DNA of 64,000 bases from a candidate division TM6 bacterium GW2011_GWF2_28_16 (GTDB lineage Bacteria > Patescibacteriota > Microgenomatia > UBA1400 > PJMF01). Both the position numbers and the translations under genes were made by a program. Under the pieces are notes generated by a model. It did no database searches, was not told the DNA's origin, and saw only the letters and a list, made by a program, of their open reading frames with translations. How positions within the stretch are numbered: position 1 is the stretch's first letter; each line of letters starts with the position of its first letter. Location of the stretch: contig CP011212.1 in assembly GCA_001029715.1 (NCBI GenBank), positions 3,407-67,406 on the forward strand. The letters are read 5' to 3'. Shown here piece by piece: positions 1 through 16,695 of the stretch.

Positions 1-3000
1 CTTATTTTCTGGTTCGATTGGCATTGGCTCAACAACTCCTGATAGAAGACTTGAAATTGTTGACGCCAGCAATCCACAGCTTCGCCTCACTCAAACAGAT
101 GGCTCCATCTATGCTGATTTTCATGTGAACAGTAATGGTGATCTAATCATGAATGTTGATGGAGTTAGCAATCAATTTGTATTAGATAATGGCGGAAATA
201 TTGGTATTGGAATTACTAATCCAGATGAAAAATTGACTGTTGACGGTGCGGTTAACGCCGAAAAATATTATGACTACACCAATAAAAACTACTTTTTGGA
301 TCCTGCTGCAATTTCCACCTCTCTAAAAACTGCCGGTGATGCTCACATCGGTGGCGATGTTTATGTCGAAGGCGGAGAAGTTTTCTTTGCTCCTCTAACC
401 ACCTCTACCTCTACTACAGAAGGCACTGTCTATTATGACAATGATGTTGATCACCTCTATCTCTATGACGGCAATAGTACTTGGCACCGTATCGCCCTGG
501 ATATGACTAAGTATTCAGATTACGGCACTATTTCTAATCAAGATTACATTGAAATTGCTCATAACCAAAACAGTAATGATTTAACCTTTACTGTCTGGAT
601 TAAAAATGCTTTGACGAATTTATGGGAAAAAATTGACCCAACTAGCTCGAGTATTGATCATGATTTAGATAATGAATTTAATCCTGAATATACCCAAAAA
701 GAAAAGGTGTCTTCAGTTTCTTTAAAGTTACAAAATGATTCTTTAGGCACCGGTGCTGATGGAGCTATTACCGTTTCTACCAGTAGAAGTATTAATAGTT
801 ACAACTCTATCTCTGGAAGAACCTGTGCTGATGGTGGTGACGGCGTCAACTATTCTGTCACAGGGTTGACTAGCACAACAGCTACTCTTGAAGCTGCCCC
901 TTCTACTGGATGCTTGGCTGTAGGAGATGAGGTGTTACTCATTAATTTGAGAGGTACTCCTAGTGCTTATGGAAATGTTGGTAATTACGAAACATTAAGA
1001 ATTGAAAGTATTAGTACTAATACTATTACTTTCACAACGGCTAAGACTAAATATTATGGCGACAATCCAACAGATGATACTAATATTGGTATTGGCACCG
1101 GAGCTCAAGATGTCATGCTACAAAGAGTGCCAAATTATACAGACGTAACAGTAAACGCTACTTACAGTTTCTATCCAGATGAATGGGTTAGACCATCAGG
1201 TAGTGCTGAAAGTGGAACTGGTGGAGCTGGTGAAGGTGGTGTTATGTTTTTTAGAGCTACTGGAGCTGTCACAGTCAATGGCACAATCACTTCTTTAGGC
1301 AGAGGCTACATTGCCGGTACTTATGCTGGAGACAATACTCAACAATATCAAGGTGATTCCACAACTGGTGTTGGTGGACTAGCCACAGCATTTTTGGCAG
1401 AAGGTGGTGGTGGTGGTGCTTATCGTTATTGTGCAGGAGGAGGTGGAGGTGGTTATGCCACTGCTGGCTCTGCTGGTATAAAAGCTGGAACTTCATGCAT
1501 CACTGTAGGTACTGGTGGTCCTGCTTATCCAACTGCTGGCAACTCAACTTTAGATAAATTGTATTTTGGTTCTGCTGGTGGTGCGGGTGGAACTGGATAT
1601 TTATCTACATGGACATATGATGGTACTAGAGGTGGAGATGGAGGTGGAGTAATTTATATAACAGCAGACACTATTTCTGTATCTGGTTCTGTAAGTGCTA
1701 CTGGACAGGCTGGCACTAACGTAGCTGATTTAGGTGGATCAGATATTACTCCAGGAGCTGGTGGTGGTGGTGCTGGAGGATCATTAAAAATTGTAGGAGA
1801 TACTCTTAATCTAGGTACCAATTTAGTTACTGCTGGTGGTGGTGCTGGAGGTACTACTGGTTATTCAAATTACGGAGGTGGCTATGTTGACTTGGGTGGC
1901 TATGCTCATGGTGGTGCTGGAGGAAGTGGTGTAGTGGCCACTTATTATGCTGAAACTATTAGTGGAAGTACTTCACCAACTTATACCATAGATACGGCAA
2001 CTGGTGGATATAACAGTTATAAAACTTATATTAGTAAAGAACTAGCTACTACGGGCGCCACTTCTTTTGGCAATCTTGAATGGACGGAAAATTTACCAAG
2101 CGGTACAGAAATTCAAATGCAAACTAGAAGTGGCAACACTAGCAACAGCACTGATGGCACTTGGGAAGCTTGGCGACCAACAACAACAACTTTATCAATT
2201 AATGACGCCAATACTCATGCCGATTGGGTAGGTACTAATGCTACGGTTGCCGACGGAGATGTAGCTAGAAATATTAATTTTTACGAAGATGAAGACGAAT
2301 CAACAGTTGGAAATACAACTAAATATACTACTAGCGCTGCTAATGGTTATGCCGAACGCACATTAACTAGCACCAATTTGTCTTCATATCAATATGTAAC
2401 ACTTTGGCTGCGCTCTGCCACAGCAGGATCAGTTATTACTCTGGGCATGGGAGAAAGTGTCGCGACAGAACAAACAAAAACTATCAAAATTGAAACAGCC
2501 GACGTCTGGCAGAAAGTTTATTGGGATATTTCTGGTATTACTGGCACTGCTCGTGATGCAATCACTAAATTTAGAATTACAAGCAGTATTAACAGCAATG
2601 TGGTTTATTTAGACAATATTAAAGCTGAGACTTATCTAAGTACTTCTACAGGTTCTACTATTACTAGTACTGCTAACAGCTATATTCAATATCGAGCTAT
2701 TATGACAACTACGAGTGCTAGCACAACTCCTACTCTAGCTGAAGTGCGAATTAACTATAATGATGGCACCGCAAAAATAATTAATGATAAGCTTTCCAAC
2801 CAAAATGACACTGATTATTATGATCAGTCTTCGCGTCTTAACATTACAACCATAAATTTGGATGATTCCAAAAGTTTAGATATCCAAAAAACAGAAACGG
2901 GCATTACAACAAAAGGAGCTATTGATCCAGGAACAGGCAATGATGGAGACATAGTAATTAGTACTAATAGAAATATAAACACCTATAATTCGATTGTCGA

Positions 3001-6000
3001 TCGCACTTGTATTGATGGAGGTGATGCTGTTAATTATTCAGTAACAGCTCTTACATCGAGAGCTGCTACTCTGCCAACAGCTCCCAACACTGGGTGCTTG
3101 GCTGCAGGAGATGAAGTACTACTCATTAATTTAAAAGGAAACATCACCTCTACTATAAATGTTGGTAATTACGAAACATTAAGAGTAGAAAGTATCAGTG
3201 ACAATGTTGTTCATTTTACCACCGCCAAAACTAAATATTATGGCGATAATTCAACAGATGATACTAATATTGGCACTGACTCTGGAAATCAAAATGTTAT
3301 GTTGCAAAGAGTACCAAATTATAATTCATTGGTAGTAGACGCTGGTATTACCTTTTCTCCTTCTGATTTTAATGGTCTAAAAAATGGAGTAATGTTTTTC
3401 AGAAGCAAAATTACTTCAATTAATGGCAGTGTCACTGCAAAAGGCGCTGGTTATAATAGAGGTACTTATGCTGGAGACCAACAACAACAATACCAGGGTG
3501 ATTCTACAACTGGCGTTGGTGGACTAGCCACAGCATTTTTAGCAGAAGGTGGTGGAGGTGGAGCCTATCGTCAATGTGCTGGTGGAGGTGGAGGTGGCTA
3601 TGCCACTGCTGGTTCTAATGGTGTAAGAGCTGGAACTTCATGCAACACTGTAGGTACTGGTGGTCCTGCTTATCCAACTTATGGAAATCCCACTTTAGAC
3701 AAGCTCTATTTTGGTTCTGCTGGTGGTGCTGGTGGAACTGGATATTTAAGCCCCAATGGTTGGATTTATGATGGTGGTGCTGGAGGTGATGGCGGAGGCA
3801 TTGTTTATATAGCCTCTGGCTCAGTTGTAGTATCAGGATCGCTTAGGGCTGATGGCGATGCTGGCACTTCAATCAGCGACATTGGCGGCACAGATATTAC
3901 TCCAGGTGCTGGTGGTGGTGGTGCTGGAGGATCATTAAAAATTGAAGCTCAAACTGTAAACTTAGGAACAAACTCAACTCTTGCCAGTGGAGGTGGTGGA
4001 GGCTCTACTGGTTATTCAAATTACGGAGATACCTATGCTAACGAAGGTGGCTATGCTTATGGTGGTGCTGGAGGCGACGGTATCATAGCTGTTACTTATG
4101 GGTCATCTATTTCAGGTTCTTCCACTCCTACTTATAATGTTGCTCAAGTACCTGCTTATACTTCTTCAATATTTGTCTCTGATGAAATAGCTACTCCAGA
4201 TTCTGTATCTTACAATAAAATATCTTGGCTAGCTGACGAAACTGCGCATGGCACTGTAGAAGTTCAAACCAGATCAGGAGCAACCAGTAACAGTACGGAT
4301 GGATCTTGGGAAGAATGGAAGCCTGCAACAAGCAGTGCTACTATCCTAGATTCTACAGATGTTCACACCAATTGGACTCCTTCCGACGCTACCATTACTG
4401 TTGCCGATGGCGATGTTGCTAGAAATGTAAATTACTACGAGGATGAAGATGAAGTTGTGGTTGAAAACACCACCAAACTTACTACAACTAGCAACAATGG
4501 TGCTTATGCTGAAAGCAGAATTGCCCAAGCAGATTTGTCTGAAAAAAGCTTCATTACTATCTGGGTTTATGCTTCCAGTTCTGGTGCCACAGTAAAAATT
4601 GGTTTTGGCGAAAATACTTCCTCAGAGCACGAGACTCTCGTTAAAATTGATGCTATTGATATTTGGCAAAAAGTTTACTGGGATATTAGTCATATTCCTG
4701 CTCAAGAACGCGATGCTGTTAGACTTTTGAAGGTTGGAACAGCAACGACAAACAACACCATTAGATTTGATCAATTTGCTGCTCAAAGATTTGGAAATGA
4801 TTCATCTGGCACTAATGTAGCCTCAAGACCAAATCAGTATTTTCAATATCGTGTCATCATGGGTAGCTCAGATCCTGCATATAGACCAGTTTTATATAAC
4901 ATTGGTATGGAATGGAACAACGGTTACAAAGTCGAGCAAACCGATAGCAACACTGTTCGTCTATACAATTACACTGGTGAGGAACAAGAGATGCGTCTTG
5001 ATGTAATTGTTTTTGGTGCTGACTTGGCTGAGTGGTATACCGTAGATGATGAGAGTATTGGCCCTGCTGATCTCGTTTCTATTACTGGCGACATGGATGA
5101 ATATGGGGTACCAATCATACAAAAATCCAGCAAATCAAACGATCCAATGCTTGTCGGTGTAATCTCTACTCAAGCTGGCACAGAATTAGGTCTTGAGGCA
5201 GACAATCGTCGCTTACTCGCCCTTGATGGGCGTGTGCCGATCAAAATTGATCCTAATAGTGATGCTATAGAAAAAGGTGATCATCTAACCTCCTCTGGAA
5301 CTCCAGGTTTAGCCCGCAAAGCTAGGCCAGGAGAACTCAGCATTGGTCGCTCCTTTGAAGCTTGGAGCCCTGACTCAGGAAAAGATCGCGTTATGGCCAT
5401 CGTCAATGACGCTATGGCTACCCCATCCTTTGGTCAACAATTGGTAGATGGCGTGGTAGAAATTGCTGATCTTCTTAATCTCAATATTCAAGATACTTGG
5501 GACGTCGTTAATTATGGGACCGGCGAAAGTATTAAGTCTGCTGCTGCTTTGGCTCAAGCCATTATTGGCAAACTTAAAGTTGGTCAGATGGAAGTTTCAG
5601 AGATCAAAGCTCCAGAAGATGGGAAGATTAGTCTTGAAGGAAATAATATCTCATTCCAACTCAATGATTCTGAGGCCTCTGGCAGTAGCGCCCTGGGTAA
5701 ATTAATTATCCAAAATGAGGATGGTGAGACAGTGGCCAGCTTCGATAGTGAAGGAAATGCCTCAATTAGCGGGCAATTAGATGTGGCTGGAATTAGTCGC
5801 CTTGGAAAACTTATTGCTGAGGAAGCCTCTTTCACTTCGATAATTTCACAAACAGCCTCTATATCCGGAGAGTTAATTGCCGGAAGTATCCAGGGAGACT
5901 CAGCCAGACTCGACTATATTGAATCAAAGCTTGCTAACTTAGAGACCGCTAGCGTTAGTGGCACTCTTTATGCAAATAATATTGAAACAGGAAGCATCCA

Positions 6001-7009: not shown

Positions 7010-7017
7010 AATTAAAA

Positions 7018-10000
7018 ATGCTTAAAATATTTAAAAAAATAAAACACCAGCTCCACAGATTTGCTATTAGATTTAAGAGAAAAATCCTCTTTATTAATTG
7101 GAATAAGTTCAAATTACCTGGTCTAATTTTATTAGGTTTTTTGATTTTGCTTGGTCTATTCTTCTGGGCTCGCCAGCTTCCTCCCAGAGCTCCAAATTTT
7201 AAAAAAAGTGAAGCTAGCAGCTACTCTTTTGAGGCAAAAAACAAAGTTTTTCAGGCTAAATTTGGCATCAGAGAACAACAGCCAATGGTGACTTTCAACG
7301 TCGATGGAGATAAATCTGTAACTCTGTCATATCAAGGAAACGATAATAGCCAAGCTACTATAGATAGTAAAGGTAAAAACCTTACTTTCAAAGATGTTGA
7401 GCCTAATATGGATATTCAGTACAAAACTTTGGCTAATGGTATTAAGGAAGAAATTGTTCTCCACCAGGCTCGCCAGAAGGAAAATAACGCTAACGTCTTT
7501 CTTTTCAATGGTAATTTTCAAGATGCCTACCCCAAAGAAATCATCAAAGGCATCTCAGGAGTTGGGTTCTACGATGAACAAAATAATTATCTTTTTCACT
7601 TCGAAAAGCCATTTGCCATTGATGCTGCTGGCAATCGTACTGACAACGTCGTCATACAAATTGAGAACAAAAATGACTCGAAAGTGCCAGAAGTTAAAAA
7701 TAGTATCGACGGTGAGACCGCTTACGTGATTCGCTTAACCGTTGACGAAACCTGGCTTAACGATCCAGTACGTACCTATCCTATTATTATCGATCCGACT
7801 ATCGTCCATGATGAATCTAGTGAATTTAGCATAGGTCAGCTAGATAGAGTTAAAGACACTGGCTCTGGCTCTTCACCAAGTTTAGAAAGTTTTTATCAGG
7901 AGCTTGGAGCAGATATTAATACTGCTGGACTTTGGCATTTTAATGAAACTAGTGGTAATGCACTAGACTCCTCTGGAAATTCTAATACTGGTACACCAAC
8001 AGGCACTACAATTGTCGATGGTCTACTCAGTAAAGCCAGATCATTTAGTGGATCTGGACAATATATAACAGTTCCAAACAGCGCATCTCTAAATCCAACT
8101 GACTCGATAACTATCGAAGCTTGGATTTATCTATCCGCCGCAAATACTAATAATGGGTTAGTTTATAAAGGCAGTTTTGCGGGTTCCCAAGGAATATATT
8201 CTTTTGGTTTTTTTAGTGGCTCAAACAATTCTCTTACATTTAGGCTCAATGGCAGCACTGGACTGGGAAATGGTCAAGTTTCTGGAAGCACAAGCTTAGC
8301 ATTAAACACCTGGTATCATGTTGCAGCTGTATATGACAAAAGCCTTAGCCAACAGAAGATATATGTCAATGGAGTTGAAGATGGATCACAACCATATGGA
8401 GTAGCAATCTCAACAGATACCAATAACTTAATAATTGGTGGTTATTATAGTTCTTCCTATTTATTTAACGGCGTAATGGACGAAGTCCGTGTCAGTAACG
8501 TTGCTCGCACTCCAGAAGAAATTCGTCTCAATGCCTCTCGCCGACCATATTCCACGTTTACTTCCAATGCAATTGATCTTACTAGTGTCAACGCTTGGAA
8601 CTCTCTCTCTTGGACTGGCACTGGTTTGGCAACTAGCGATGGAGAAACCCCTGCCTCTTCTACTGGCTTAGTAGCTCAATGGAACTTTAATGAAACTTCA
8701 GGAGTAACAGCTGTTTCTGGTGGAACTTGTGGGACAAGTTGTAATGGAACTTTAACCAATATGACTACTACAAGTCAAGACGCTGCTGCAATGACTGGTT
8801 GGACAGCTAATAACCGTCGTTGGGGCGCGGGGGCTTTGATGTTTGATGGGAGTAATGACTATGTTAATGCAGGCAGTGATTCGTCTATAGACAACATTAC
8901 TTCAAAAACTTTTTGTACTTGGATAAATCTTCGTACTCAAATCGGTTCTGATTCTGCAGGAAGCCACATCATAAATAAGGGAGATCTTTGGTTTATTGCT
9001 ACCGACCCAGCCAATTCAAGAAATATTTATGGACAAAATTTCTCCACAACAAATGGAAGATGGTCGTTTCCATTAATGCAAACTGGACAGTGGAATCATT
9101 TATGTGCTGTCTATGACAGATCTTCCACAAGTAATGACCCAACGATCTACGTTAATGGAGTTGCTCAACCAATAACTGAATATTCTACTCCAGTAGGTTC
9201 AGCAAGTGATGATTCTTCCAACAGCTTATCTCTTGGATCGTCTATTCCAAATGGAAGATGGCTGGCTGGATCTCTAGATGGAGCACAGCTATATAGTCGT
9301 GCCCTAACTGCTTCCGAAGTCTTATCTAACTACAACTCCTCCCGTATTGAACTTCAAACTCGCGTTGGAACCTCCAGCGATCCCAATGATGGCACTTGGG
9401 AAGCATGGAAACCAACTACTGCTGAAGCAATTATCGACAGTCTTGATAATTCTGTTGACCAATGGACCATCGATAGTTATCAAAATAGTTCATCTACTAT
9501 CTCTAAAATCGGTACTATTAATGTAGGTTCAGGAAATGATGGCGCATGTACAGTATCTTCAGGAACTACTACCCTAAGTACGGGCAGCTGTGCAGGTCGA
9601 GGTACCGCCGATGCCGTTAACTTTGCTTCCACCGTGCTTACTGGTGCGGGTGCTACTAGTATTACTGTTTCAACCACCCCAACAGGTCTTACCGCCGGAG
9701 ATGAAGTTTTAATTATCAATCTTCAAGGCACAAGCACTAATTACGATCGTGTTGGACAATATGAAACACATACAATTGCCTCTATTTCCACAAACACTCT
9801 TAATTTTACCGATAGCCCCCTTCAGAATACCTATGACGGAACCACTCAAAAAATTATGGTGCAGAGAGTTCCCAACTACACCAACGTAACTGTCTCATCT
9901 GGAGCTATCCTTACCACAGGAGCTTGGGATGGCACAAAAGGTGGTGTTCTTTTCTTCAGAGCCTCTGGCGCTGTCAGTAATGCCGGAACAATTACCATGA

Positions 10001-13000
10001 CTGGATTAGGATATCGGGGTGGTACAGCTGCCGTGGGATGCACCACTGGAGGTAAGGGAGAATCATTAAATGGAAATCTTGGCGGAGGCGATGGAAAAGA
10101 TGGATATTCTATAGGGGCGGGTGGTACAGGTGTATTTGGTGGTGGTGGTGGAGGTGGAAGCTATCCTGCAGCCTCAAATGTTGTCGCTAAAGGCGGAGGT
10201 GGTGGTTATGGTACAGGTGGATCAGGTGGAGCAGGAACTGGCTCTGCTTCAGCAGGAGGTACCGGAAGTTCAGTTGGTGGAAACGGAGGCGCAAACACTG
10301 CTACTAATACTGCCGGTGGTGGTGGTGGGGGGGGTTTTTATGGTCAAGGAACTCTGGAGAGAATATTTTTTGGTTCTGGAGGAGGAAGTAGTGGGGGTTG
10401 GTATAATGGAGCCTGTCAAAATGGCTACGCCGGCACAAACGGAGGCGGCATAATTTCAATTTTTGCCGATACTTTAACCAATGCCAATACTATTAGCTCA
10501 AATGGAACAAATGCCAGTTCCGCCAACTCTGGAACAGGATCTGGAGGAGCAATAAAAATTGTCGGTAATACACTTACTTTAGGGTCTACTGTTACTGCCA
10601 GCGGGGGCACTTCGGGGGTAACAGGTGGTGTTGGTCGTGTTTCAACTACATATTCCACTTCCCTCTCTGGTTCCACGACCCCCGTTCCGTACACCCAAAA
10701 ACTCCAATCAACTATTAAACAGGAGGGTACTGGTGCCATGCAAATTTCTACTGGTCGCCCTGAAGTAGATTCCTCCACTGTTGGTCTTTGGCACCTTGAT
10801 GAGACTGGAGGTACTGGTGCATATCTCAAAGATAGCAGTGGTAACGCCAATCATGGCACTGCTACTGGAACAACCATTATTGATGGACTCCTTAACAAAG
10901 CTCGATCATTTAATGGAAGCTCATACATTACAGTGGCTGATAGCAATTCTTTAGATCTTACTGAAAATTTCAGTATTTCAGCCTGGGTTAATAGAAAAGA
11001 TACAGATGGGGGCACAGTTGTATCTAAAACAGTAGCTGGTACCACTGGTGGTTATGCTGTGCTTTGGGGCAGCGCTGGTGAAGTATATTGCAGAACAAAC
11101 AATGGAACAACTTACACTGATTCTTATAGTTCACAAGGGGTTCTCACATCAACTACTGGATGGACTCACGTTGCTGTGGTTAAAAATGGAACTAGTTGTC
11201 GTATCTATATTAATGGAATTGACAAAACCTCAACCGCAAATTCGCACACTAACCCCATTGCTAATGCTCTTCCTTTGCTCATTGGTTCTAGAACTGATCT
11301 TGGAGCGGAATTTACAACAGGAGTTATTGATGAAGTCCGCATTAGTAATATCGCCAGATCTGCCGAAGAAATTGCTGAAAGCTACCGCATGGGTCGCGAT
11401 CATCGTACTAGTAAAAACATTTCCTCTATAAATCTTTCCGCTTCTACCAAACTACCCTTTTATATTGCCTCTGATCGTCTTGGCACTTTTTCTGAATTAA
11501 CTATTGGCGAATCTGCCTTTGCCAATTACGAGCCAGATGCTAATACTGTTGGACTATGGAATATTGATGAACAATCTGGTGCAGGTGCTTACTTAAAAGA
11601 TTCATCTGGAAATGGCAATCATGGCACCCCAACAGGCACTACCTTCACTCAAGGGAAAGTAGGAAAAGCTAGAAATTTCAATGGAACTAGTGATGTTGTT
11701 AAAACAGGTACAAATTCGTCCTTAAATATAAACGGAACTTTGACTCTTTCAGCTTGGATAAAAGCGAGCACGGACGTGACAAATTATAGAATGATTATTT
11801 CAAAGGAGGAATCCCCATCAATAAACCCATATCGTATTTATCTTGGATCATCCACAGGTATTCCCAATTTTACAGACATGTTTACCAACGGCGGAGTAAC
11901 CGGCACAATTGCGTTGAACGACGATAAATGGCATTACATTGTTGTTACACGAGATGATACAGCCAAAGTATCTAAAATGTACATTGATGGTATATTAAAT
12001 GCTCAGGGCACAACATATTCTGGTACCAATCCTCAAGCAACTTCTACTATAGAAACATGGATAGGAAAGACACCATATGCTGACAGATTCCCTTTCTATG
12101 GATCAATTGATGAAGTCCGTATCGACAACGTCGCCCGCACCGCCGACGAAATCCGTCAAGCTTACGAAGTTGGATCACGTACCCACAATATTACTATCGA
12201 TTTTAAGGCCAAATTAGGTTCTGGAGATTTGATTACAAGTGGCTCTGATCTTGGTTTTACCGTCGATGAAACTGCCTATGGCTCGTCCTACGCCGCTAAT
12301 CACTTATTCTTAGGAGACAAAATCATTGTCAAGGAAAACTACGATGGCACTGAATATATTGCCCAAGGCACGGTCAATGCTGTGAACTTTAGCACGGGTG
12401 CCGTCACAGTCGCTGCTTGGGACTCTGGCTCTACTTTCCCAGCTGCTGGTTTTACTGTCAACGCCACTGTTTTTAAATGGCAGCGTGAATACTTTGATAT
12501 TACTAGTTCTCTCTCTACTCAAAGAGACGCTATCACTCGCCTCACTTATCGCATTACCGACGGTTCTATGGGAGCCAATCTTTGGCTTGATGATCTTAAA
12601 AGTTCTGGTGGATACTTATCTAATCCACTTGGATCTACCATTACCTCTTCTGTTGGCAATCAGTATTTTCAGTACCGGGCAATTCTTTCACAAAATGATC
12701 CTAGCATTCCATCAGCCGCGTTGACTTCGGTAACTGTTGATTATGTTTCTAATAATACTCCAGATGCCCCAACACTTAATGATTCATATCTTCATGACAA
12801 AATTAAAACTCCAGACTCCTCTCCAGAAATTCGTTTTACTGCGACCGACGAAGAAGATGACGACCTTATTTACCAATTTGAATATGATACGACTGCCGAT
12901 TTTACTGCTCCCACTACTATAACTTCAGATTCTGATTTGGGTTTTACCAACATTACTACTCCAGCTGACACTAACCCTTTTAATGTGGGAGAAAGTATCG

Positions 13001-16000
13001 CCTATACTTTTCAATCAGCCTTAAGCAATGACACAACTTATTATTATCGTGTAAGAACTAAAGATCTTATTTCTAATACTTATTCTTCTTGGTCTAGCAT
13101 CCGTTCATTAACCATTGACACTTCCATCAGCGATGAACAGTGGTTTGAAACCATGGGAGAACAATTTGCAACCGATACAACTACTGGTAAAGCAATTGTT
13201 TCTAACGTTACCAACGACGTTCGCATTACAGCTACATCCGGAACTACGTTACTCGATGATATGGAATACTCTTCTGATTCTGAAGCTCAAACAGCGTATA
13301 TAACAGACGATGCAGGTATTATAGCAACTGGCGGAATTGTTTCTTTTAATGGAGACTATACTGTTCACACATTCACCAGTAGTGAAAATTTTAATGTTTT
13401 ATCCGGAACAGATGATATTGAAGTTCTTGTTGTTGGAGGTGGTGGAGGTGGAGGTTATTCTTTTGGAGGTGGTGGAGGTGGTGGTGGTACAATCTATAAC
13501 CCATCGTATACAGTATCTTCAGGTGCAATCCCCATAACCATAGGTGGAGGAGGAGGAGGTTCTACTTCATCTAGTTCTAAGGGTAGTTCAGGAGCAAATT
13601 CAGTCTTTGGATCGTTGACAGCTATTGGAGGAGGAGGAGGTGCCAGTGACGGCGCAGAAGAAGGTGTCCCCGGAGGCAGTGGTGGTGGTGGTAGTATAGA
13701 CTCGGTTACCCTTGCTTCTGGTACATCTGGTCAAGGATACGCCGGTGGAATAGGCTCACGCACTGGTTACGGTGGTGGTGGTGGAGGTGGTGGTGGTGGC
13801 GTAGGACTTAATGACACTGCCTCAGAAGCTGGCGATGGTGGAATTGGATACAATTCAAACATTTCTGGTATTTCAACATACTATGCAGGTGGAGGTGGAG
13901 GTGGAACAGGCTCTCAAGTACACAATAATCCTGGTGAGGGAGGAACTGGAGGTGGCGGTAATGGAGGCAATAGTACAAATTCAGGTCTTTCCGTAGGAAC
14001 AGTAAATACTGGAGGAGGTGGTGGTGGAGGAGGTCAGGGCTATTCAGGAGCTTCTGGTGGCTCTGGTATTGTAATTGTTAGATACAAAACTACTCCACTA
14101 AACGTTTACAACAGTAATAATTTTGTTGCTCTTGGTGGCACAATTGCCACTTCTAGTGCTTACACTAGACACACATTCACCAGTAGTGAAAATTTTAATG
14201 TTTTATCCGGAACAGAGAATATAGAAGCCCTTATTATTGGAGGTGGAGGTGGAGGTGGAGGTGGAGAAAGTCAAAACGGATATGGAGGAGGTGGAGGTGG
14301 AGGTGCTGGAGGAGGAGTAATTTATCAACCACATCTTATTTTATCATCAGGAAATAATGCGGTGACTGTGGGTAACGGTGGTAGTGGCGGTGCTTCAGCT
14401 GCTGGAGATTCTTCAAGTAGGGGCTCAAACGGGCAAAACTCTACTCTTGGCTCGCTTATCGCTATTGGTGGTGGTGGTGGTGGAGGTGACTGGTTGTCAG
14501 GATTGTATGGAGGAAGCGGAGGTGGTGCTGGTGGTGATAATGGCGTTATTGGTTTAGGAGCACTGGGTCAAGGATATAACGGAGGTGGCGCAGGTGGAAG
14601 AGCTGGTGGTGGAGGTGGAGGTGGTGGAACCATAGGAAACAGTGGAAGCTCAAGTATTGGAGGAGCAGGTGGAACAGGTTTTCAATCTTCTATAAGCAGC
14701 AGTTCTATTTACTATTCTGGTGGTGGTGGAGGTGGTGCTGGTGGCACCAGTGGTGGTACAGCTGGAGGCGCTGGTGGCATCGGTGGAGGTGGTGCTGGTT
14801 CATATAATGGTCCTAGTGATGGTTCTGGTACATATACTGCCACACCTGGCACAGCCAATACGGGTGGTGGTGGTGGTGGTGAAGGAGCTGGAAATGGTAC
14901 TAGTAGACCAGGAGCTTCTGGTGGTTCTGGTATTGTTGTTGTCAAATATAAAACCCCAACAGGATCGAGTCATTCTCAGGGTGACTACTCTCTTAAAGCT
15001 ATTGCCAACACGAACTCTTTAAATAAAACACTTACTAAAACCATATCCCCTACTATTGATTTATCCGAAAAGGATTCCCTATTTTTTGACATTAGATCCT
15101 CAAGAACAGGTAGTAATATTAAGCTCGGAATTCGCGATTCTGGTGGTACCACCACTGAAGTCACGCCCGACATTACTGCTGTTGACACCTTCCAAACAGT
15201 TTCCCTAGATATTTCTGGTGTTACTAATGCTGATAAAGATAATATTGAGGAAATTATTATTACCATTACTAATGCTGACGCTAGTAATACTTTTTATTTA
15301 GATAATTTTTATACTGAAAAACTTTTAGCCTCTACGGGCTCTGTTCTTTCTACTCCAATAACAGCCACTGATATCAATTCCACAGCCTCAACTTGGAATA
15401 GTCTCGTTTTTGACAGTACTCCTGATGAAGCTATTACTTATCAAGTATATTATGACGTAGCTGGAACTCCCACCATTATTTCAGATTCAGATTTGCCAGG
15501 AAACTCGATTGGTTTTACTACTTCACCTGTTAGTCTAACGTCTCTTAATACTTCTTCGTATCCTATTATCTATATCAAGGCCAATCTCTCTGATGCTACT
15601 GGCGAACCAATTCTTACCAATTGGGGAGTTTACCTCGGCTCTCCACCCAATGCACCTAGTGAAGCAAAGGCTGAAAATCTTACTAATCCAACTGGTATTC
15701 TTGACACAACTCCAGAATTTTCTGCTATTCATAATGACGTTGATGGTGATAGCGCTAATTATTCTGAAATTGAAGTAAACACGGCTAATGATTTTACCGG
15801 TACTGTCATGTGGGACTCAGGTCAACAAAGTATGACTGCCGTCGCTAATGGCGCGCGCTCTGCACAAATTCCTTATGCTGGTACTACTTTGACCTTAAAT
15901 GGAGCCACTTATTATTGGCGCATTCGTTTCTGGGACACTTTTGGCTTAGTTAGCCCTTGGTCGGCAACACAAAATTTCAGCATGAACCAAAAACCAAGCA

Positions 16001-16695
16001 TTCCTACCCTAGATTTGCCAGGCAATAACGCCATTGATCAAAACTTTAATCTTGCCTTTAAAACTACTACTACTGATGCTGACGGTGATTATCTACGCTA
16101 TAAAATTCAATTATGTACCAATGTAGAAATGACGGTTAATTGCCAAACTTTTGATCAAACTGTTTTGCAAACTGGCTGGAGTGGACAAAACACTCAAACA
16201 AATACCGCTTACACCAGTGGTACACAAGCTACATATACTCTGCAAACAGATTTAGAACCAAATAATACTTATTATTGGAGAAGTTATGCCATTGATCCAG
16301 GAGGCAGTAATACTTGGAGTGAAACCCAAGCTGTACCTTATAATTTTTCAACCCTCACCACTCCATTGCCTGCTAGTAACTGTTACATTCAAGAAAACAT
16401 TGATCGCACTCAATTTCTCTTAGTTTGGACAGATAATGCGGATAATGAGGATTTCTATGAAGTACAACGAAGTGTTGATGGCGGAACTTGGACTGCCTTG
16501 CAAACTGGCTTAGCACCAAACACTGCAAATCTTCTCGACAATACTATTAGCACTGGCCATACTTACCAATATCGCGTCGCTCCTTACTTCATCGGACCAT
16601 ATTATGCTTCTTGGTGCACCGCAAGTACTCTTAATATTGGAGTGGGCTTGTTCAATCTAGAGGGAATCAAGGCAAGTGGTTTGCATTTCAACTAA
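7018..16695 (+). CDS. Giant cell-surface protein (about 3,225 aa) with an N-terminal signal-anchor, three LamG/ConA-like modules, Gly-rich beta-rich repeats and FN3-like C-terminal repeats
   Basis: ATG at 7018 lies 8 nt after the upstream stop, and the tool's 6988 start overlaps the previous gene. The N-terminus (LPGLILLGFLILLGLFFWA) is a TM anchor. There are three DEVRxSNxARxxEEI motifs at about 8475, 11325 and 12105, typical of Laminin_G_3/concanavalin-like domains. FTSSENFNVLSGTxxIExLxxGGGGGGG units occur at about 13370 and 14160, and YYWRxR/YYYRVR FN3-like repeats at about 13000 and 15700-16300. Modules are shared with gene 1 (AGDEVLxINLxG, VMxQRVPNYT, GVxFFRAxGAV, QYFQYRAI). Confidence 0.8.
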   Translation: MLKIFKKIKHQLHRFAIRFKRKILFINWNKFKLPGLILLGFLILLGLFFWARQLPPRAPNFKKSEASSYSFEAKNKVFQAKFGIREQQPMVTFNVDGDKSVTLSYQGNDNSQATIDSKGKNLTFKDVEPNMDIQYKTLANGIKEEIVLHQARQKENNANVFLFNGNFQDAYPKEIIKGISGVGFYDEQNNYLFHFEKPFAIDAAGNRTDNVVIQIENKNDSKVPEVKNSIDGETAYVIRLTVDETWLNDPVRTYPIIIDPTIVHDESSEFSIGQLDRVKDTGSGSSPSLESFYQELGADINTAGLWHFNETSGNALDSSGNSNTGTPTGTTIVDGLLSKARSFSGSGQYITVPNSASLNPTDSITIEAWIYLSAANTNNGLVYKGSFAGSQGIYSFGFFSGSNNSLTFRLNGSTGLGNGQVSGSTSLALNTWYHVAAVYDKSLSQQKIYVNGVEDGSQPYGVAISTDTNNLIIGGYYSSSYLFNGVMDEVRVSNVARTPEEIRLNASRRPYSTFTSNAIDLTSVNAWNSLSWTGTGLATSDGETPASSTGLVAQWNFNETSGVTAVSGGTCGTSCNGTLTNMTTTSQDAAAMTGWTANNRRWGAGALMFDGSNDYVNAGSDSSIDNITSKTFCTWINLRTQIGSDSAGSHIINKGDLWFIATDPANSRNIYGQNFSTTNGRWSFPLMQTGQWNHLCAVYDRSSTSNDPTIYVNGVAQPITEYSTPVGSASDDSSNSLSLGSSIPNGRWLAGSLDGAQLYSRALTASEVLSNYNSSRIELQTRVGTSSDPNDGTWEAWKPTTAEAIIDSLDNSVDQWTIDSYQNSSSTISKIGTINVGSGNDGACTVSSGTTTLSTGSCAGRGTADAVNFASTVLTGAGATSITVSTTPTGLTAGDEVLIINLQGTSTNYDRVGQYETHTIASISTNTLNFTDSPLQNTYDGTTQKIMVQRVPNYTNVTVSSGAILTTGAWDGTKGGVLFFRASGAVSNAGTITMTGLGYRGGTAAVGCTTGGKGESLNGNLGGGDGKDGYSIGAGGTGVFGGGGGGGSYPAASNVVAKGGGGGYGTGGSGGAGTGSASAGGTGSSVGGNGGANTATNTAGGGGGGGFYGQGTLERIFFGSGGGSSGGWYNGACQNGYAGTNGGGIISIFADTLTNANTISSNGTNASSANSGTGSGGAIKIVGNTLTLGSTVTASGGTSGVTGGVGRVSTTYSTSLSGSTTPVPYTQKLQSTIKQEGTGAMQISTGRPEVDSSTVGLWHLDETGGTGAYLKDSSGNANHGTATGTTIIDGLLNKARSFNGSSYITVADSNSLDLTENFSISAWVNRKDTDGGTVVSKTVAGTTGGYAVLWGSAGEVYCRTNNGTTYTDSYSSQGVLTSTTGWTHVAVVKNGTSCRIYINGIDKTSTANSHTNPIANALPLLIGSRTDLGAEFTTGVIDEVRISNIARSAEEIAESYRMGRDHRTSKNISSINLSASTKLPFYIASDRLGTFSELTIGESAFANYEPDANTVGLWNIDEQSGAGAYLKDSSGNGNHGTPTGTTFTQGKVGKARNFNGTSDVVKTGTNSSLNINGTLTLSAWIKASTDVTNYRMIISKEESPSINPYRIYLGSSTGIPNFTDMFTNGGVTGTIALNDDKWHYIVVTRDDTAKVSKMYIDGILNAQGTTYSGTNPQATSTIETWIGKTPYADRFPFYGSIDEVRIDNVARTADEIRQAYEVGSRTHNITIDFKAKLGSGDLITSGSDLGFTVDETAYGSSYAANHLFLGDKIIVKENYDGTEYIAQGTVNAVNFSTGAVTVAAWDSGSTFPAAGFTVNATVFKWQREYFDITSSLSTQRDAITRLTYRITDGSMGANLWLDDLKSSGGYLSNPLGSTITSSVGNQYFQYRAILSQNDPSIPSAALTSVTVDYVSNNTPDAPTLNDSYLHDKIKTPDSSPEIRFTATDEEDDDLIYQFEYDTTADFTAPTTITSDSDLGFTNITTPADTNPFNVGESIAYTFQSALSNDTTYYYRVRTKDLISNTYSSWSSIRSLTIDTSISDEQWFETMGEQFATDTTTGKAIVSNVTNDVRITATSGTTLLDDMEYSSDSEAQTAYITDDAGIIATGGIVSFNGDYTVHTFTSSENFNVLSGTDDIEVLVVGGGGGGGYSFGGGGGGGGTIYNPSYTVSSGAIPITIGGGGGGSTSSSSKGSSGANSVFGSLTAIGGGGGASDGAEEGVPGGSGGGGSIDSVTLASGTSGQGYAGGIGSRTGYGGGGGGGGGGVGLNDTASEAGDGGIGYNSNISGISTYYAGGGGGGTGSQVHNNPGEGGTGGGGNGGNSTNSGLSVGTVNTGGGGGGGGQGYSGASGGSGIVIVRYKTTPLNVYNSNNFVALGGTIATSSAYTRHTFTSSENFNVLSGTENIEALIIGGGGGGGGGESQNGYGGGGGGGAGGGVIYQPHLILSSGNNAVTVGNGGSGGASAAGDSSSRGSNGQNSTLGSLIAIGGGGGGGDWLSGLYGGSGGGAGGDNGVIGLGALGQGYNGGGAGGRAGGGGGGGGTIGNSGSSSIGGAGGTGFQSSISSSSIYYSGGGGGGAGGTSGGTAGGAGGIGGGGAGSYNGPSDGSGTYTATPGTANTGGGGGGEGAGNGTSRPGASGGSGIVVVKYKTPTGSSHSQGDYSLKAIANTNSLNKTLTKTISPTIDLSEKDSLFFDIRSSRTGSNIKLGIRDSGGTTTEVTPDITAVDTFQTVSLDISGVTNADKDNIEEIIITITNADASNTFYLDNFYTEKLLASTGSVLSTPITATDINSTASTWNSLVFDSTPDEAITYQVYYDVAGTPTIISDSDLPGNSIGFTTSPVSLTSLNTSSYPIIYIKANLSDATGEPILTNWGVYLGSPPNAPSEAKAENLTNPTGILDTTPEFSAIHNDVDGDSANYSEIEVNTANDFTGTVMWDSGQQSMTAVANGARSAQIPYAGTTLTLNGATYYWRIRFWDTFGLVSPWSATQNFSMNQKPSIPTLDLPGNNAIDQNFNLAFKTTTTDADGDYLRYKIQLCTNVEMTVNCQTFDQTVLQTGWSGQNTQTNTAYTSGTQATYTLQTDLEPNNTYYWRSYAIDPGGSNTWSETQAVPYNFSTLTTPLPASNCYIQENIDRTQFLLVWTDNADNEDFYEVQRSVDGGTWTALQTGLAPNTANLLDNTISTGHTYQYRVAPYFIGPYYASWCTASTLNIGVGLFNLEGIKASGLHFN
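10327..10334 (+). repeat. G8 homopolymeric tract inside the giant surface protein gene
   Basis: ggtggtgggggggg ttttt: eight consecutive G in an AT-rich genome, within a Gly-Gly-Gly-Gly-Phe coding stretch. Confidence 0.9.
13435..14885 (+). repeat. Multiple (GGN)n glycine-codon microsatellite-like tracts (ggt/gga repeats of 20-60 nt) inside the giant protein gene
   Basis: Tracts are at about 13435-13488, 13771-13800, 14241-14318, 14471-14490, 14611-14630, 14721-14790 and 14866-14880. Similar tracts in gene 1 are at about 1381-1450 and 3541-3600. Confidence 0.8.

What the first reader, a model, noticed from the sequence alone, without database searches (positions are those of the whole stretch)
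1..16695. Two adjacent paralogous giant surface proteins (over 2,300 aa and about 3,225 aa) occupying a quarter of the window
Both proteins share ordered modules (AGDEVLxINLxG, VMLQRVPNYT, GVxFFRAxGAV, TRSGxTSNSTDGxWExW, QYFQYRAI). The second adds an N-terminal membrane anchor, three LamG/concanavalin-like modules and FN3-like repeats. The first ends in a fibre-like C-terminus. One segment of it (LVGVISTQAG...GRVPIKID...IEKGDHLTSSGTPGLARKA) resembles the autoproteolytic intramolecular-chaperone modules of phage tail fibres and spikes. Giant adhesin-like proteins next to type IV pilin genes fit a host-attachment role in an epibiotic lifestyle.
Basis: partly seen in the sequence, partly recalled or inferred. 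Interest (0 to 1): 0.6.

Follow-up and report, generated by a model that had tools for sequence, protein, structure and literature searches.

The report
Giant phage-fibre-like surface protein pair
Two neighbouring genes of a tiny candidate-phyla-radiation (Pacebacteria) bacterium encode membrane-anchored surface proteins of about 3,300 and 3,225 residues, built from lectin-like and glycine-rich modules; one of them also carries, at an internal position, the self-cleaving folding module normally found at the very end of phage tail fibres, so they are most likely attachment fibres of a partly new design.

Summary
The two giant ORFs are real, adjacent and paralogous. Gene 1 is cut by the window edge. 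Its full length in the public closed genome is 3,294 aa. Gene 2 is 3,225 aa from ATG 7018. The source is Candidatus Pacebacteria GW2011_GWF2_38_9.

They share a ~450-aa module (beta-barrel plus glycine-rich solenoid) and a split beta-sandwich. The motif order in gene 2 differs from gene 1, because the module and two LamG domains sit inside the split domain. Gene 2 has four LamG domains, not three, plus two Gly_rich_2 domains and Ig/FN3-like domains.

The chaperone-like segment of gene 1 holds up. It belongs to a very large family (16,914 cluster representatives). A profile of that family hits the phi29 gp12 autochaperone (Peptidase_G2 type, E=3e-4). The near-invariant D-x-A-E motif aligns to the gp12 cleavage site. 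It is not Peptidase_S74, although relatives carry S74 in the same slot.

In phages the module is C-terminal. Here about 530 residues follow it.

The full gene 1 starts with a cytoplasmic integrase-SAM-like domain and a TM helix.

Host attachment is a plausible inference but is untested. Giant adhesin-like proteins in Patescibacteria are already known. I rate this a new variant of a known kind.

The parts
2..7009 (+). Gene 1, the C-terminal 2,335 codons plus stop of a 3,294-aa protein (AKM80965.1). The missing 959 N-terminal residues lie left of the window. They hold a Phage_int_SAM_1-like cytoplasmic domain (aa 36-113), a Lys-rich linker, one TM helix and fibre repeats.
   Evidence: ORF open to the window edge; full-length protein ends with the window sequence exactly; Phage_int_SAM_1, 38.7 bits against a cutoff of 22.3
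2..745 (+). Fibre-like repeats of gene 1 ('IGIGxTxPxxxLxV' type), continuing from the missing N-terminal part.
   Evidence: Read from the sequence. The same region and the same junction to the module are present in orthologs L003 (87%) and L005 (74%)
746..1984 (+). Shared module, copy 1 in gene 1 (aa 249-661): beta-barrel (AGDEVLLINL...VMLQRVPNY) followed by a glycine-rich beta-solenoid. Related to AgmC_N.
   Evidence: NF047640, 86.7 bits, below cutoff 275; paralogy; 207 homologs; AF2 pLDDT 78, pTM 0.84; fold matches
2066..2767 (+). Split beta-sandwich, copy 1 (N-part with QTRSG..WEAW, C-part with YIQYRAI) holding an inserted carbohydrate-binding-module-like domain (YEDEDE...WQKVYWDIS). No family assignment.
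   Evidence: motif positions; no Pfam hit; phrog_6185, unknown function, E=3.3e-8. The domain interpretation is inference from the sequence pattern
2930..4135 (+). Shared module, copy 2 in gene 1 (aa 977-1378).
   Evidence: 55% identity to copy 1; 64% over 448 aa; DNA copies at most 83% identical
4211..4924 (+). Split beta-sandwich with inserted domain, copy 2 (aa 1404-1641).
5018..5413 (+). Peptidase_G2-like (phi29 gp12-type) intramolecular-chaperone module, aa 1673-1804. Predicted scissile bond between Ala1673 and Asp1674 of the invariant A-D-L-A-E (nt 5018-5032).
   Evidence: 50-62% identical across relatives, flanks ~30%; PDB profile hits to phi29 gp12; D-x-A-E aligned to residue 1 of the released fragment 3gqh; 11 of 29 members hit PF11962; bridge through P0093; model and fold search; 16,914 relatives; D-x-A-E in 89 of 96
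5414..7006 (+). C-terminal extension after the chaperone-like module (531 aa): repeat-rich and coiled-coil-like stretch, then a small terminal domain with a weak K1-lyase_C-like match.
   Evidence: PF24146, E=7.6e-4, below cutoff; homologs only in Patescibacteria; the same extension follows a true Peptidase_S74 domain in P0003 and P0030
7018..16695 (+). Gene 2, 3,225 aa from ATG 7018 (an in-frame GTG at 6988 overlaps the end of gene 1). Basic N-terminus plus TM anchor at nt 7114-7170.
   Evidence: (identical 3,225-aa product called in two public assemblies)
7924..9333 (+). LamG domains 1 and 2 of gene 2 (aa 313-512 and 561-782).
   Evidence: Laminin_G_3, E=1.2e-88, 4 stretches
9346..12747 (+). 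Split beta-sandwich of gene 2. N-part IELQTRVG..WEAW at nt 9346, C-part QYFQYRAIL...VDYV at nt 12661-12747. Nested inside are the shared module (nt 9526-10692), LamG 3 (10780-11373), LamG 4 (11548-12153) and a CBM-like stretch.
   Evidence: (AgmC_N 60.6 bits, TafC 166.6 bits, both below cutoff). The nesting is inferred from the motif order
13357..14955 (+). Two tandem Gly_rich_2 domains of gene 2 (aa 2124-2368 and 2392-2656).
   Evidence: PF21722, E=1e-37, 2 stretches; repeat D10, 804-nt spacing; phrog_863, phrog_2295
12760..13125 (+). FN3-like domain after the split sandwich of gene 2.
   Evidence: Sequence pattern only; one search gave a weak Pur_ac_phosph_N match (E=0.032). Low confidence
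15650..16692 (+). C-terminal Ig/FN3-like domains of gene 2 (Ig_Rha78A_N at aa 2891-2999, then FN3-like repeats).
   Evidence: PF25788, 62.8 and 60.3 bits, above cutoff 27.4; fn3 E=0.011, below cutoff
16721..18613 (-). Three prepilin-type genes convergent with gene 2 (153, 186 and about 234-280 aa).
   Evidence: N_methyl 28.2, 30.3 and 25.9 bits against cutoff 21.2; T2SSG in the second

Best explanation
Genes 1 and 2 form a conserved tandem pair in a Pacebacteria (CPR/Patescibacteria) chromosome. They encode two N-terminally membrane-anchored (N-in, C-out) extracellular fibre proteins of about 3,300 and 3,225 aa.

Both display a shared beta-barrel plus glycine-rich solenoid module (two copies in gene 1, one in gene 2). 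Both also hold a split beta-sandwich that carries inserted binding-type domains. Gene 2 adds four LamG lectin-type domains, two Gly_rich_2 domains and Ig/FN3-like spacers.

Gene 1 is built like a phage tail fibre. Long fibre repeats are followed by a phi29-gp12-type (Peptidase_G2-like) intramolecular chaperone.

Proposed mechanism:
1. The ectodomain is exported (inferred).
2. The chaperone-like module trimerises and nucleates folding of the upstream fibre (inferred).
3. It may cut the chain at Ala|Asp of the invariant A-D-L-A-E motif (inferred).
4. Unlike in phages, about 530 further residues follow the module. These are a coiled-coil-like stalk and a small terminal domain. They would either stay attached as the distal tip or be shed (inferred).
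5. The finished fibres bind surface glycans of a partner cell, possibly working with the neighbouring type-IV-pilin-like proteins (inferred).

Shown here: the gene structure, the paralogy, the domain families, the homology of the module to gp12's autochaperone, its unusual internal position, the conservation of the gene pair, and the N-terminal anchor with a cytoplasmic SAM-like domain.
For: - Gene structure and paralogy.
- Domains: Laminin_G_3 E=1.2e-88 (x4), Gly_rich_2 E=1e-37 (x2), Ig_Rha78A_N E=4e-17.
- Full-length gene 1 and its N-terminus; Phage_int_SAM_1 38.7 bits and a TM helix preceded by KKKK.
- Chaperone-like module:
  - It is the most conserved stretch of the C-terminal region (50-62% identity against ~30% for the flanks).
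  - Profile A2 hits phi29 gp12 (6qz9_A E=3e-4, 3gqh_A E=6.6e-4). The family's D-x-A-E aligns to D692-F-A-E695, the first residues of the released fragment.
  - 11 of 29 family members hit PF11962 on their own.
  - P0093 has the same layout and scores 24.9 bits against PF11962; it aligns to the module at hhalign probability 98.9.
  - Foldseek finds 3gqh_A (probability 0.93) and phage cement and decoration proteins.
  - D-x-A-E is present in 89 of 96 distant relatives.
  - Relatives P0003 and P0030 carry a true Peptidase_S74 chaperone in exactly the same slot, in front of the same C-terminal extension. This argues that a chaperone or cleavage function is what is selected there.
- Surface and adhesion context:
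  - The shared module is fused to prepilin N-termini in other bacteria (P0073 N_methyl 31.1 bits).
  - The best fold match is a PA14-domain protein of a Bathycoccus virus (E=1.9e-18, TMq 0.55).
  - Three pilin-like genes lie directly downstream.
- The tandem gene-1-like then gene-2-like order is conserved in L005, L008 and L010.
- Literature: very large surface proteins with FN3 and ConA-like domains in Patescibacteria have been proposed as host-recognition factors (PMC13059738). The gp12 C-terminal domain is a cleaved chaperone (PMC4690869, PMC3357383).
Against: - Gene 1's own module gives no Pfam Peptidase_G2 hit even at E<=10.
- The single-family profile hit to 3gqh was only E=0.25.
- The structural match to 3gqh has TM 0.35. 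Matches to uncleaved phage cement and decoration proteins are better (TM ~0.5). The module could therefore be a non-cleaving trimerisation clamp.
- The residue before Asp is Ala, not Ser as in gp12, and it varies across the family.
- From my own recollection of Xiang et al. 2009, which I could not read here, release of the gp12 chaperone needs ATP. ATP is not available outside the cell.
- There is no evidence of expression, export, trimerisation or binding.
- The shared module has no solved relative. Its best PDB fold hits are tailspike depolymerases at TM<=0.18, so an enzymatic role is not excluded.
- Adjacency to pilin genes was only examined in this genome.
Confidence: 0.6

Rival explanations
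1. The proteins are surface-tethered polysaccharide-degrading enzymes (tailspike-like depolymerases) that digest the capsule or cell wall of the host or prey, rather than passive adhesins. The glycine-rich solenoid or barrel module would carry the active site.
For: The best PDB fold hits of the shared module are phage tailspike depolymerases and lyases (LKA1 gp49 E=7e-5, phi297 gp61, AP22 gp54, KP34p57, K1 lyase). There is a weak K1-lyase_C match at the gene-1 C-terminus. A Glyco_hydro_130-like weak hit occurs in one homolog. phi29 gp12, the closest relative of the chaperone module, is itself a teichoic-acid-degrading spike (my own knowledge of Xiang et al. 2009).
Against: TM-scores are at most 0.18, so the similarity is only generic beta-solenoid. 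No catalytic family was detected in Pfam, NCBIfam or PHROGs. No conserved acidic catalytic residues were identified. The invariant columns of the module are mostly Gly.
Confidence: 0.15
2. They are structural envelope components (an S-layer-like or spacer coat) of the CPR cell with no specific partner-binding role. The chaperone-like module serves only as an uncleaved trimerisation clamp, like phage cement proteins.
For: The best structural matches of the module are uncleaved capsid cement and decoration proteins (8hdt_G E=9e-4, TM 0.51; 8pkh; 6qyy). 10 of 29 members hit XM1_gp53_minor_capsid and 5 hit Phage_cement_2. The module is internal, not terminal.
Against: The D-x-A-E motif that aligns with the gp12 cleavage site is nearly invariant. 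An S74 autocleaving chaperone substitutes for the module in relatives. Four LamG domains and other lectin-type domains suggest ligand binding. Module content and copy number differ between close relatives, which is more typical of host-interaction proteins than of a structural coat.
Confidence: 0.15
3. The pair is a degraded or domesticated prophage tail-fibre cassette, or an assembly artefact created by repeats.
For: Phage-type features are present: fibre repeats, a G2-like chaperone, Gly_rich_2, and PHROG hits to tail-fibre families. The module is common in IMG/VR viral contigs. Public assemblies break inside gene 1.
Against: The flanks are housekeeping and pilin genes, with no phage structural, packaging or lysis genes. 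Both proteins have N-terminal TM anchors, which tail fibres lack. The pair is conserved in several CPR lineages. Two independent assemblies are 100% identical to the window over 24.9 kb. A closed-genome protein matches gene 1 exactly. Internal DNA repeats are at most 83% identical.
Confidence: 0.04

Closest known systems
Bacteriophage phi29 pre-neck appendage protein gp12, C-terminal autochaperone (Pfam Peptidase_G2, PF11962; PDB 3GQH, 3SUC, 6QZ9)
   Same: There is profile-level homology to gene 1 aa 1673-1804. D-x-A-E sits at the position of the gp12 cleavage site S691|D692-F-A-E695. The downstream motifs are shared (..iGviS..pG..lG....vaL.G.v.Vkv..). The module follows a long fibre or beta-structured region. 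In viral contigs the same family ('YADLAExY') closes tail-fibre-sized proteins.
   Different: Gene 1's module is not C-terminal, since 531 residues follow it. The median tail is ~430 aa in the cellular giant proteins against 17 aa in viral contigs. The protein is a TM-anchored cellular protein of 3,294 aa, not a virion component. The residue before Asp is Ala, not Ser. Pfam's own model does not reach threshold. Cleavage is untested.
Endosialidase-type C-terminal intramolecular chaperone (Pfam Peptidase_S74; K1F endoNF, T5 pb1; also eukaryotic MyRF)
   Same: It has the same presumed job, namely trimerisation and self-cleavage after a fibre. Close relatives of gene 1's C-terminal extension (P0003, 53% identical; P0030) carry a true S74 domain in exactly the slot that the G2-like module occupies in gene 1. 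As in MyRF, the module is internal to a membrane protein that has a DNA-binding-type domain at the other end.
   Different: There is no sequence match of gene 1 to S74. The fold type differs (beta-stranded body, as noted for phi29 in PMC4690869). In MyRF the cleavage frees the DNA-binding part. Here the module lies on the opposite side of the membrane from the SAM-like domain.
Giant adhesin-like surface proteins of Patescibacteria and DPANN episymbionts (for example the >1,500-aa FN3/ConA-like surface proteins of Absconditicoccaceae, PMC13059738) and RTX-type adhesins with split domains
   Same: They are very large, surface-targeted and carry lectin-type (ConA/LamG) and FN3/Ig-type domains. 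They occur in an organism with an inferred episymbiotic lifestyle. Binding domains are inserted in split 'companion' domains.
   Different: The module set differs: the AgmC_N-like barrel and solenoid, Gly_rich_2, the phage-type chaperone, and an N-terminal cytoplasmic integrase-SAM-like domain. No function has been tested for any member.
Myxococcus AgmC N-terminal domain (NCBIfam NF047640) and glycine-rich solenoid proteins of Chloroflexota, Myxococcota and Planctomycetota
   Same: The shared module matches NF047640 over nearly its full length (profile positions 26-397 of 412; E=1.5e-24 and 1.3e-16). It has 207 homologs across these phyla.
   Different: The scores (86.7 and 60.6 bits) are far below the equivalog cutoff of 275. 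The architecture and the organism differ. The molecular role of AgmC itself is unknown (my own knowledge; no paper in the library mentions it).

Membership tests
Peptidase_G2 (phi29 gp12-type intramolecular chaperone, PF11962) | Match to the Pfam model at or above the gathering score (25 bits) | tested here: not met
   Gene 1 gives no hit, even at E<=10 on the isolated C-terminal region. The best family members reach E=1.3e-5, and P0093 reaches 24.9 bits.
Peptidase_G2 (phi29 gp12-type intramolecular chaperone, PF11962) | Detectable homology to the gp12 C-terminal domain | tested here: met
   Profile A2 against PDB: 6qz9_A E=3e-4, 3gqh_A E=6.6e-4, 3suc_A E=0.021, as the top three hits. 11 of 29 members hit PF11962.
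Peptidase_G2 (phi29 gp12-type intramolecular chaperone, PF11962) | Conserved Asp and Glu (D-x-x-E) at the N-terminal boundary, aligned with the gp12 cleavage site | tested here: met
   D, A and E are invariant in A1 and A2. They align to residues 1-4 (DFAE) of the released fragment 3gqh, equal to D692-E695 of 6qz9. The motif is present in 89 of 96 distant relatives.
Peptidase_G2 (phi29 gp12-type intramolecular chaperone, PF11962) | Same fold as the 3GQH/3SUC domain | tested here: inconclusive
   The AF2 model has pLDDT 79.8. Foldseek gives 3gqh_A E=0.023, probability 0.93, but TM 0.35. Phage cement and decoration proteins score better (TM ~0.5).
Peptidase_G2 (phi29 gp12-type intramolecular chaperone, PF11962) | Located at the extreme C-terminus and removed on maturation | tested here: not met
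   531 residues follow the module in gene 1. The median tail is ~430 aa in cellular relatives against 17 aa in viral contigs. The removal itself is not testable with these tools.
Peptidase_G2 (phi29 gp12-type intramolecular chaperone, PF11962) | Autoproteolysis after trimerisation | not testable with these tools
   This needs expression of the ectodomain and mass spectrometry or N-terminal sequencing.
Peptidase_S74 (endosialidase-type chaperone, PF13884) | Match to the Pfam model, with the S-D-x-R-x-K start | tested here: not met
   There is no hit in gene 1 or gene 2. Relatives P0003 (E=3.2e-18) and P0030 (E=1.4e-12) have it in the equivalent slot.
LamG / concanavalin-A-like lectin (Laminin_G_3, PF13385) | Match above the gathering score | tested here: met
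   Gene 2 scores 295.4 bits against cutoff 27.6, E=1.2e-88, in 4 stretches. The positions are aa 313-512, 561-782, 1265-1462 and 1521-1722. Gene 1 has none.
Gly_rich_2 (PF21722) | Match above the gathering score | tested here: met
   Gene 2 scores 130.8 bits against cutoff 24.3, in 2 stretches.
FN3 / Ig-like | Match above the gathering score | tested here: met
   Ig_Rha78A_N scores 62.8 bits against cutoff 27.4 at aa 2891-2999. Classical fn3 reaches only E=0.011, 16.3 bits, below its cutoff.
AgmC N-terminal domain (NF047640, equivalog domain) | Score at or above the curated cutoff of 275 bits | tested here: not met
   The scores are 86.7 bits (gene 1, two stretches) and 60.6 bits (gene 2). The module is related but is not an equivalog.
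Type IV pilin-like neighbours (N_methyl, PF07963) | Prepilin N-terminal methylation motif above threshold | tested here: met
   The three genes at 16721-18613 (minus strand) score 28.2, 30.3 and 25.9 bits against cutoff 21.2. The giant proteins themselves have no such motif.
Tyrosine recombinase / site-specific integrase (the name PGAP gives to fragments of this protein family) | Catalytic Phage_integrase domain following the SAM-like core-binding domain | tested here: not met
   Only the SAM-like domain is present (PF02899, 38.7 bits, aa 36-113). It is followed by a TM helix and the ectodomain. No catalytic domain was found in the 3,294-aa protein. The 'site-specific integrase' names are misannotations.

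The most novel reading that the evidence does not exclude
These giant fibres may be signalling or delivery devices rather than passive adhesins. A cytoplasmic DNA-binding-type domain is wired through a single TM helix to a 3,000-residue extracellular fibre. In gene 1 that domain is integrase-SAM-like; in relatives that carry the same chaperone module it is two MerR-type HTH domains. The fibre's phage-type chaperone is placed internally, so that self-cleavage would free a ~660-residue C-terminal piece. Contact with a host cell could then either be transmitted to the DNA-binding domain (a ToxR-like or MyRF-like membrane-tethered regulator on a giant scale), or could trigger shedding or transfer of the C-terminal fragment onto the host.
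Probability: 0.12. Interest if true: 0.85.

Novelty: new variant of a known kind. Interest (0 to 1): 0.55.

Why it matters
CPR/Patescibacteria are thought to live attached to other cells. How they recognise and hold their hosts is largely unknown, and giant surface proteins are the main candidates.

This locus gives a concrete, testable design:
- a conserved pair of TM-anchored fibres;
- a predicted cleavage site (Ala|Asp in A-D-L-A-E);
- identifiable lectin-type modules.

It also shows that a phage tail-fibre folding device has been taken over by cellular giant proteins on a very large scale (16,914 cluster representatives). In these proteins it sits in a different position, internal and followed by a long extension.

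The recurring cytoplasmic DNA-binding-type N-termini (SAM-like, MerR) are unexplained and are routinely misannotated as integrases.

A practical point: these genes break short-read assemblies, and module copy number varies between near-identical strains. They are therefore under-represented and fragmented in databases.

Tried and rejected
- Direct Pfam, NCBIfam and PHROGs scans of gene 1 for S74 or G2 gave nothing.
- phmmer of the segment against PDB gave only spurious hits to designed TIM barrels.
- The profile of close homologs (A1) gave phi29 gp12 as top hit, but only at E=0.25. A broader profile was needed.
- The shared module gave no PDB relative by sequence. The Foldseek PDB hits are too weak (TM<=0.18) to assign a fold family.
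- I could not obtain the primary phi29 gp12 paper, Xiang et al. 2009. Statements on ATP-dependent release rest on my memory of it.
- Literature searches for the genome accession and for AgmC found nothing. The giant-gene preprint 10.1101/2023.11.21.568195 does not cover these proteins.
- The prophage or tail-fibre-cassette reading and the collapsed-repeat chimera reading are rejected.
- The weak hit of the module profile to the Aureispira grappling-hook protein GhpA (9flp, E=0.074) was not pursued and is not used as evidence.
- No tRNA genes were found in the window.
- I did not test whether pilin genes also neighbour the pair in other genomes.


Full report
**What is there.** The left quarter of the window holds two same-strand giant reading frames.
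- Gene 1 is open from nt 2 to the stop at 7007-7009. That is 2,335 codons with no stop upstream, so the window cuts it.
- Gene 2 runs from GTG 6988 or ATG 7018 to 16695.
- Exact-sequence look-ups place the locus in Candidatus Pacebacteria bacterium GW2011_GWF2_38_9 (GCA_000993185.1, LBVQ01000001.1). This is a CPR/Patescibacteria genome of ~0.85 Mb.
- The 3,225-aa product of gene 2 (from ATG 7018) is encoded identically there and in an ENA metagenome contig. Both contigs are 100% identical to the window over 24.9 kb.
- Both contigs begin inside gene 1, at window nt 1840 and 1798. Short-read assemblies therefore break in the duplicated glycine-rich module.
- The complete gene-1 product is AKM80965.1, 3,294 aa, on a closed 853-kb contig. 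Its last 2,335 residues are exactly the window's translation.
- The surroundings are chromosomal. They include Obg, Rho, RadA, an M23/LysM peptidase, a type IV secretion cluster, and dnaA-dnaN-yidC at the right end. No phage genes were found.

**Paralogy and module map.**
- Gene 1 and gene 2 are related at E=7.6e-68.
- Gene 1 contains a tandem duplication of ~715 aa at 55% identity. At the DNA level the copies are at most 83% identical over 300 nt. A collapsed-repeat artefact is therefore unlikely.
- The junction between the N-terminal fibre repeats and the first module is the same in orthologs from other genomes (L003 87%, L005 74%).
- Each unit in gene 1 has two parts:
  - a ~410-aa module, consisting of a barrel with AGDEVLLINL...VMLQRVPNY followed by a Gly-rich region;
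  - a sandwich-like domain whose N-part (QTRSG..WEAW) and C-part (Y[IF]QYRAI) are separated by a ~180-aa insert.
- In gene 2 the N-part (aa 790) comes first. Then follow the shared module (847-1235), two LamG domains and a further insert. The C-part (YFQYRAI) appears only at aa 1893.
The simplest reading is that in gene 2 these domains are nested inside the split domain. This arrangement has been described for adhesins (a paper cited in PMC13059738). The nesting is my inference from motif order.
- Pfam finds in gene 2: Laminin_G_3 four times (E=1.2e-88), Gly_rich_2 twice (E=1e-37) and Ig_Rha78A_N (E=4e-17). Classical fn3 is only weak.
- Pfam finds nothing in gene 1.

**The shared module.**
- It matches NCBIfam's AgmC N-terminal domain far below the curated cutoff (86.7 and 60.6 bits against 275).
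- It has 207 detected homologs in CPR, Chloroflexota, Myxococcota, Planctomycetota and others. Some are fused to LamG, to EGF-like domains or to prepilin N-termini (P0073 N_methyl 31.1 bits).
- An AlphaFold2 model (pLDDT 78, pTM 0.84) shows a beta-barrel followed by a beta-solenoid.
- There is no relative among solved structures by sequence.
- Foldseek PDB hits are phage tailspike depolymerases, but with TM<=0.18.
- Among predicted viral structures the best match is a PA14-domain protein of a Bathycoccus virus (E=1.9e-18, TMq 0.55). Uncharacterised phage and giant-virus glycine-rich proteins follow.
- The fold is recurrent on viral and bacterial surfaces, but its activity is unknown.

**The chaperone-like module of gene 1.**
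- It is the best-conserved part of the C-terminal region. Identity is 50-62% across Patescibacteria homologs whose flanks are ~30% identical.
- Scans of gene 1 alone were negative.
- A profile of 18 close homologs put phi29 gp12's C-terminal fragment (3GQH) on top, but at E=0.25.
- Searching 1.84 billion representatives with that profile found 16,914 proteins at E<=1e-3 and 4,634 at E<=1e-10. Most are 1,000-7,700 aa long. The distant ones start to match exactly at the A-D-L-A-E motif.
- A broader profile (29 sequences, 31% mean column identity) hits phi29 gp12 significantly: 6qz9_A E=3e-4, 3gqh_A E=6.6e-4, 3suc_A E=0.021.
- That profile aligns the family's invariant D-x-A-E to D692-F-A-E695. 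These are residues 1-4 of the crystallised released fragment, directly after Ser691.
- The literature held here confirms that this gp12 domain is an intramolecular chaperone cleaved off after folding. [quoted passage not shown]
- 11 of 29 family members individually hit Pfam Peptidase_G2. 10 hit XM1_gp53_minor_capsid and 5 hit Phage_cement_2.
- P0093 is a 915-aa protein with the same layout (fibre repeats, shared module, then this module). It scores 24.9 bits on Peptidase_G2 (cutoff 25) and aligns to the gene-1 family at hhalign probability 98.9.
- The AF2 model of the module (pLDDT 79.8) matches phage capsid cement and decoration proteins at TM ~0.5. It matches 3gqh_A at probability 0.93 but TM 0.35.
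- D-x-A-E is present in 89 of 96 distant representatives. The residue before Asp is variable.
- Verdict on this module: homologous to the Peptidase_G2-type chaperone, and not S74. Cleavage is untested.

**Two features that differ from the phage paradigm.**
- Position. In 78 IMG/VR loci the same module ('YADLAExY') lies at the very end of tail-fibre-sized ORFs, with a median of 17 residues after the match. In the cellular giant proteins a median of ~430 residues follows. In gene 1 the figure is 531.
- What follows it. The extension is found only in Patescibacteria. In relatives P0003 (53% identical) and P0030 it is preceded by a true Peptidase_S74 chaperone (E=3.2e-18 and 1.4e-12), sitting exactly where gene 1 has the G2-like module.
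- Two unrelated chaperone types occupy one slot in front of the same extension. This argues that the chaperone or cleavage function is what is selected there, and that the extension is a functional unit.

**The N-terminus, which lies outside the window.**
- The full gene-1 protein starts with a Phage_int_SAM_1 domain (38.7 bits against cutoff 22.3; aa 36-113).
- This is followed by a Lys-rich linker and one TM helix, then a conserved 'LSYQGRL...' ectodomain start.
- There is no recombinase catalytic domain. The PGAP names 'site-specific integrase, partial' for fragments of this family are misannotations.
- I examined 100 relatives that begin with Met and carry the G2-like module. At least 11 have this SAM-like start.
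- By phmmer, 3 of the 100 have a MerR-like start, and about 9 more show HTH-like N-termini on inspection of the listing. Three of the latter (P0163, P0167, P0227) were confirmed by Pfam to carry two MerR-type HTH domains.
- About 30 of the 100 have a TM or signal-like segment within the first 60 residues, many followed by the same 'YQG[RK]L' motif.
- Gene 2 has only a short basic N-terminus and a TM helix.

**Conservation of the pair.** A gene-1-like ORF followed by a gene-2-like LamG-rich ORF recurs in the 74% ortholog genome (L005) and in two MAGs labelled Saccharibacteria (L008, L010). A near-identical relative (HAZ72971.1, 98.8% over 2,119 aa) has an additional module copy upstream of the first module. 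This indicates copy-number variation between strains.

**Interpretation.**
- The best-supported reading (confidence ~0.6) is a conserved pair of TM-anchored extracellular fibres that display lectin-type and solenoid modules. Gene 1 folds as a trimer with the help of a phage-derived G2-type chaperone.
- Attachment to a partner cell is the likely role, given the domain content, the pilin fusions of the shared module elsewhere, the adjacent pilin-like genes and what is proposed for similar proteins in other Patescibacteria (PMC13059738). None of this is tested.
- Rivals are a depolymerase function, a purely structural coat with an uncleaved clamp, and a phage remnant or artefact (largely refuted).
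- The most novel reading not excluded is a signalling or delivery device. It would link host contact to the cytoplasmic DNA-binding-type domain, or shed the C-terminal ~660 residues.

**Novelty.** The genes have been public as 'hypothetical protein' or 'PE-PGRS family protein' since 2015. Giant adhesin-like proteins in CPR are a known theme. My recollection is that the phi29 gp12 paper already suggested that bacterial adhesins might use such chaperones. Three things appear not to be described in the library I could search: the internal placement of the chaperone followed by a conserved extension, the S74/G2 slot exchange, and the DNA-binding-type cytoplasmic N-termini of this very large family. 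I rate it a new variant of a known kind, interest 0.55.

Noticed in passing
window 25838-27982, 37175-39156, 48324-52022, 53049-53903, 55347-57545: There is a Gram-positive-type type IV secretion cluster. It comprises a VirD4/TrwB-like coupling protein, two T4SS_pilin-like proteins, a 1,232-aa protein with a weak M23 peptidase match, a PrgI-family protein and a VirB4/TraG-like ATPase. Several large ORFs between them (39134-41965, 42789-44537, 44586-47081) have no Pfam match.
   Followed up: no
window 57656-63247: dnaA, dnaN, yidC, a KH/R3H (Jag-like) gene and RNase H lie together. The cumulative GC skew reaches its minimum near 58-60 kb, so the replication origin is probably here. In the closed genome, gene 1 is annotated as the first gene.
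   Followed up: no
window 1798-1840 (start of L001 and L002): Two independent public assemblies of the same genome (NCBI LBVQ01000001.1 and ENA ERZ27254744 k141_417722) start inside gene 1, in the glycine-rich part of module copy 1. In the NCBI draft assembly the gene is split into partial proteins (1,722 aa at the contig start, and a 1,240-aa partial on the same contig).
   Followed up: partly
P0153 (HAZ72971.1) versus window 662-7006: A Pacebacteria protein is 98.8% identical to gene 1 aa 221-2335. Upstream it carries a further module copy where the window has fibre repeats. This means module copy number differs between near-identical strains, or one assembly is wrong.
   Followed up: partly
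full-length gene 1 (P0292 aa 1-200) and relatives P0163, P0167, P0227: Giant ectodomain proteins of this family start with cytoplasmic DNA-binding-type domains (integrase SAM-like, or two MerR HTH domains) before the single TM helix. PGAP names the fragments 'site-specific integrase, partial'. The function of these domains is unexplained.
   Followed up: partly
L003, L005, L011 (CAZBVY010000008.1, CAZEEV010000002.1, CAZIBP010000001.1): MAGs titled 'uncultured Pseudomonadales bacterium' carry the closest orthologs of this CPR gene (87%, 74% and 61%). L003 and L005 also show the SAM-like/TM N-terminus. The taxonomic labels are probably wrong. L005 also has a run of N inside the ortholog, followed by a frame change.
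   Followed up: no
window 16721-18613 (minus strand) and 18324-20534 (plus strand): Three prepilin-type genes are convergent with gene 2. The longest-ORF extents of the third pilin gene and of the TPR-protein gene overlap by ~290 nt. The two public gene calls place their starts differently (16,792 vs 16,636 for the pilin end; 16,938 vs 16,662 for the TPR start, in locus coordinates), so the start sites are uncertain. No pilus assembly ATPase was seen in the window.
   Followed up: no
profile A2 versus PDB 9flp_A (residues 3720-3758): The chaperone-module profile gives a weak, non-significant hit (E=0.074) to the 5,898-aa grappling-hook protein GhpA of the predatory bacterium Aureispira. This could hint that the module occurs in another giant prey-capture fibre.
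   Followed up: no
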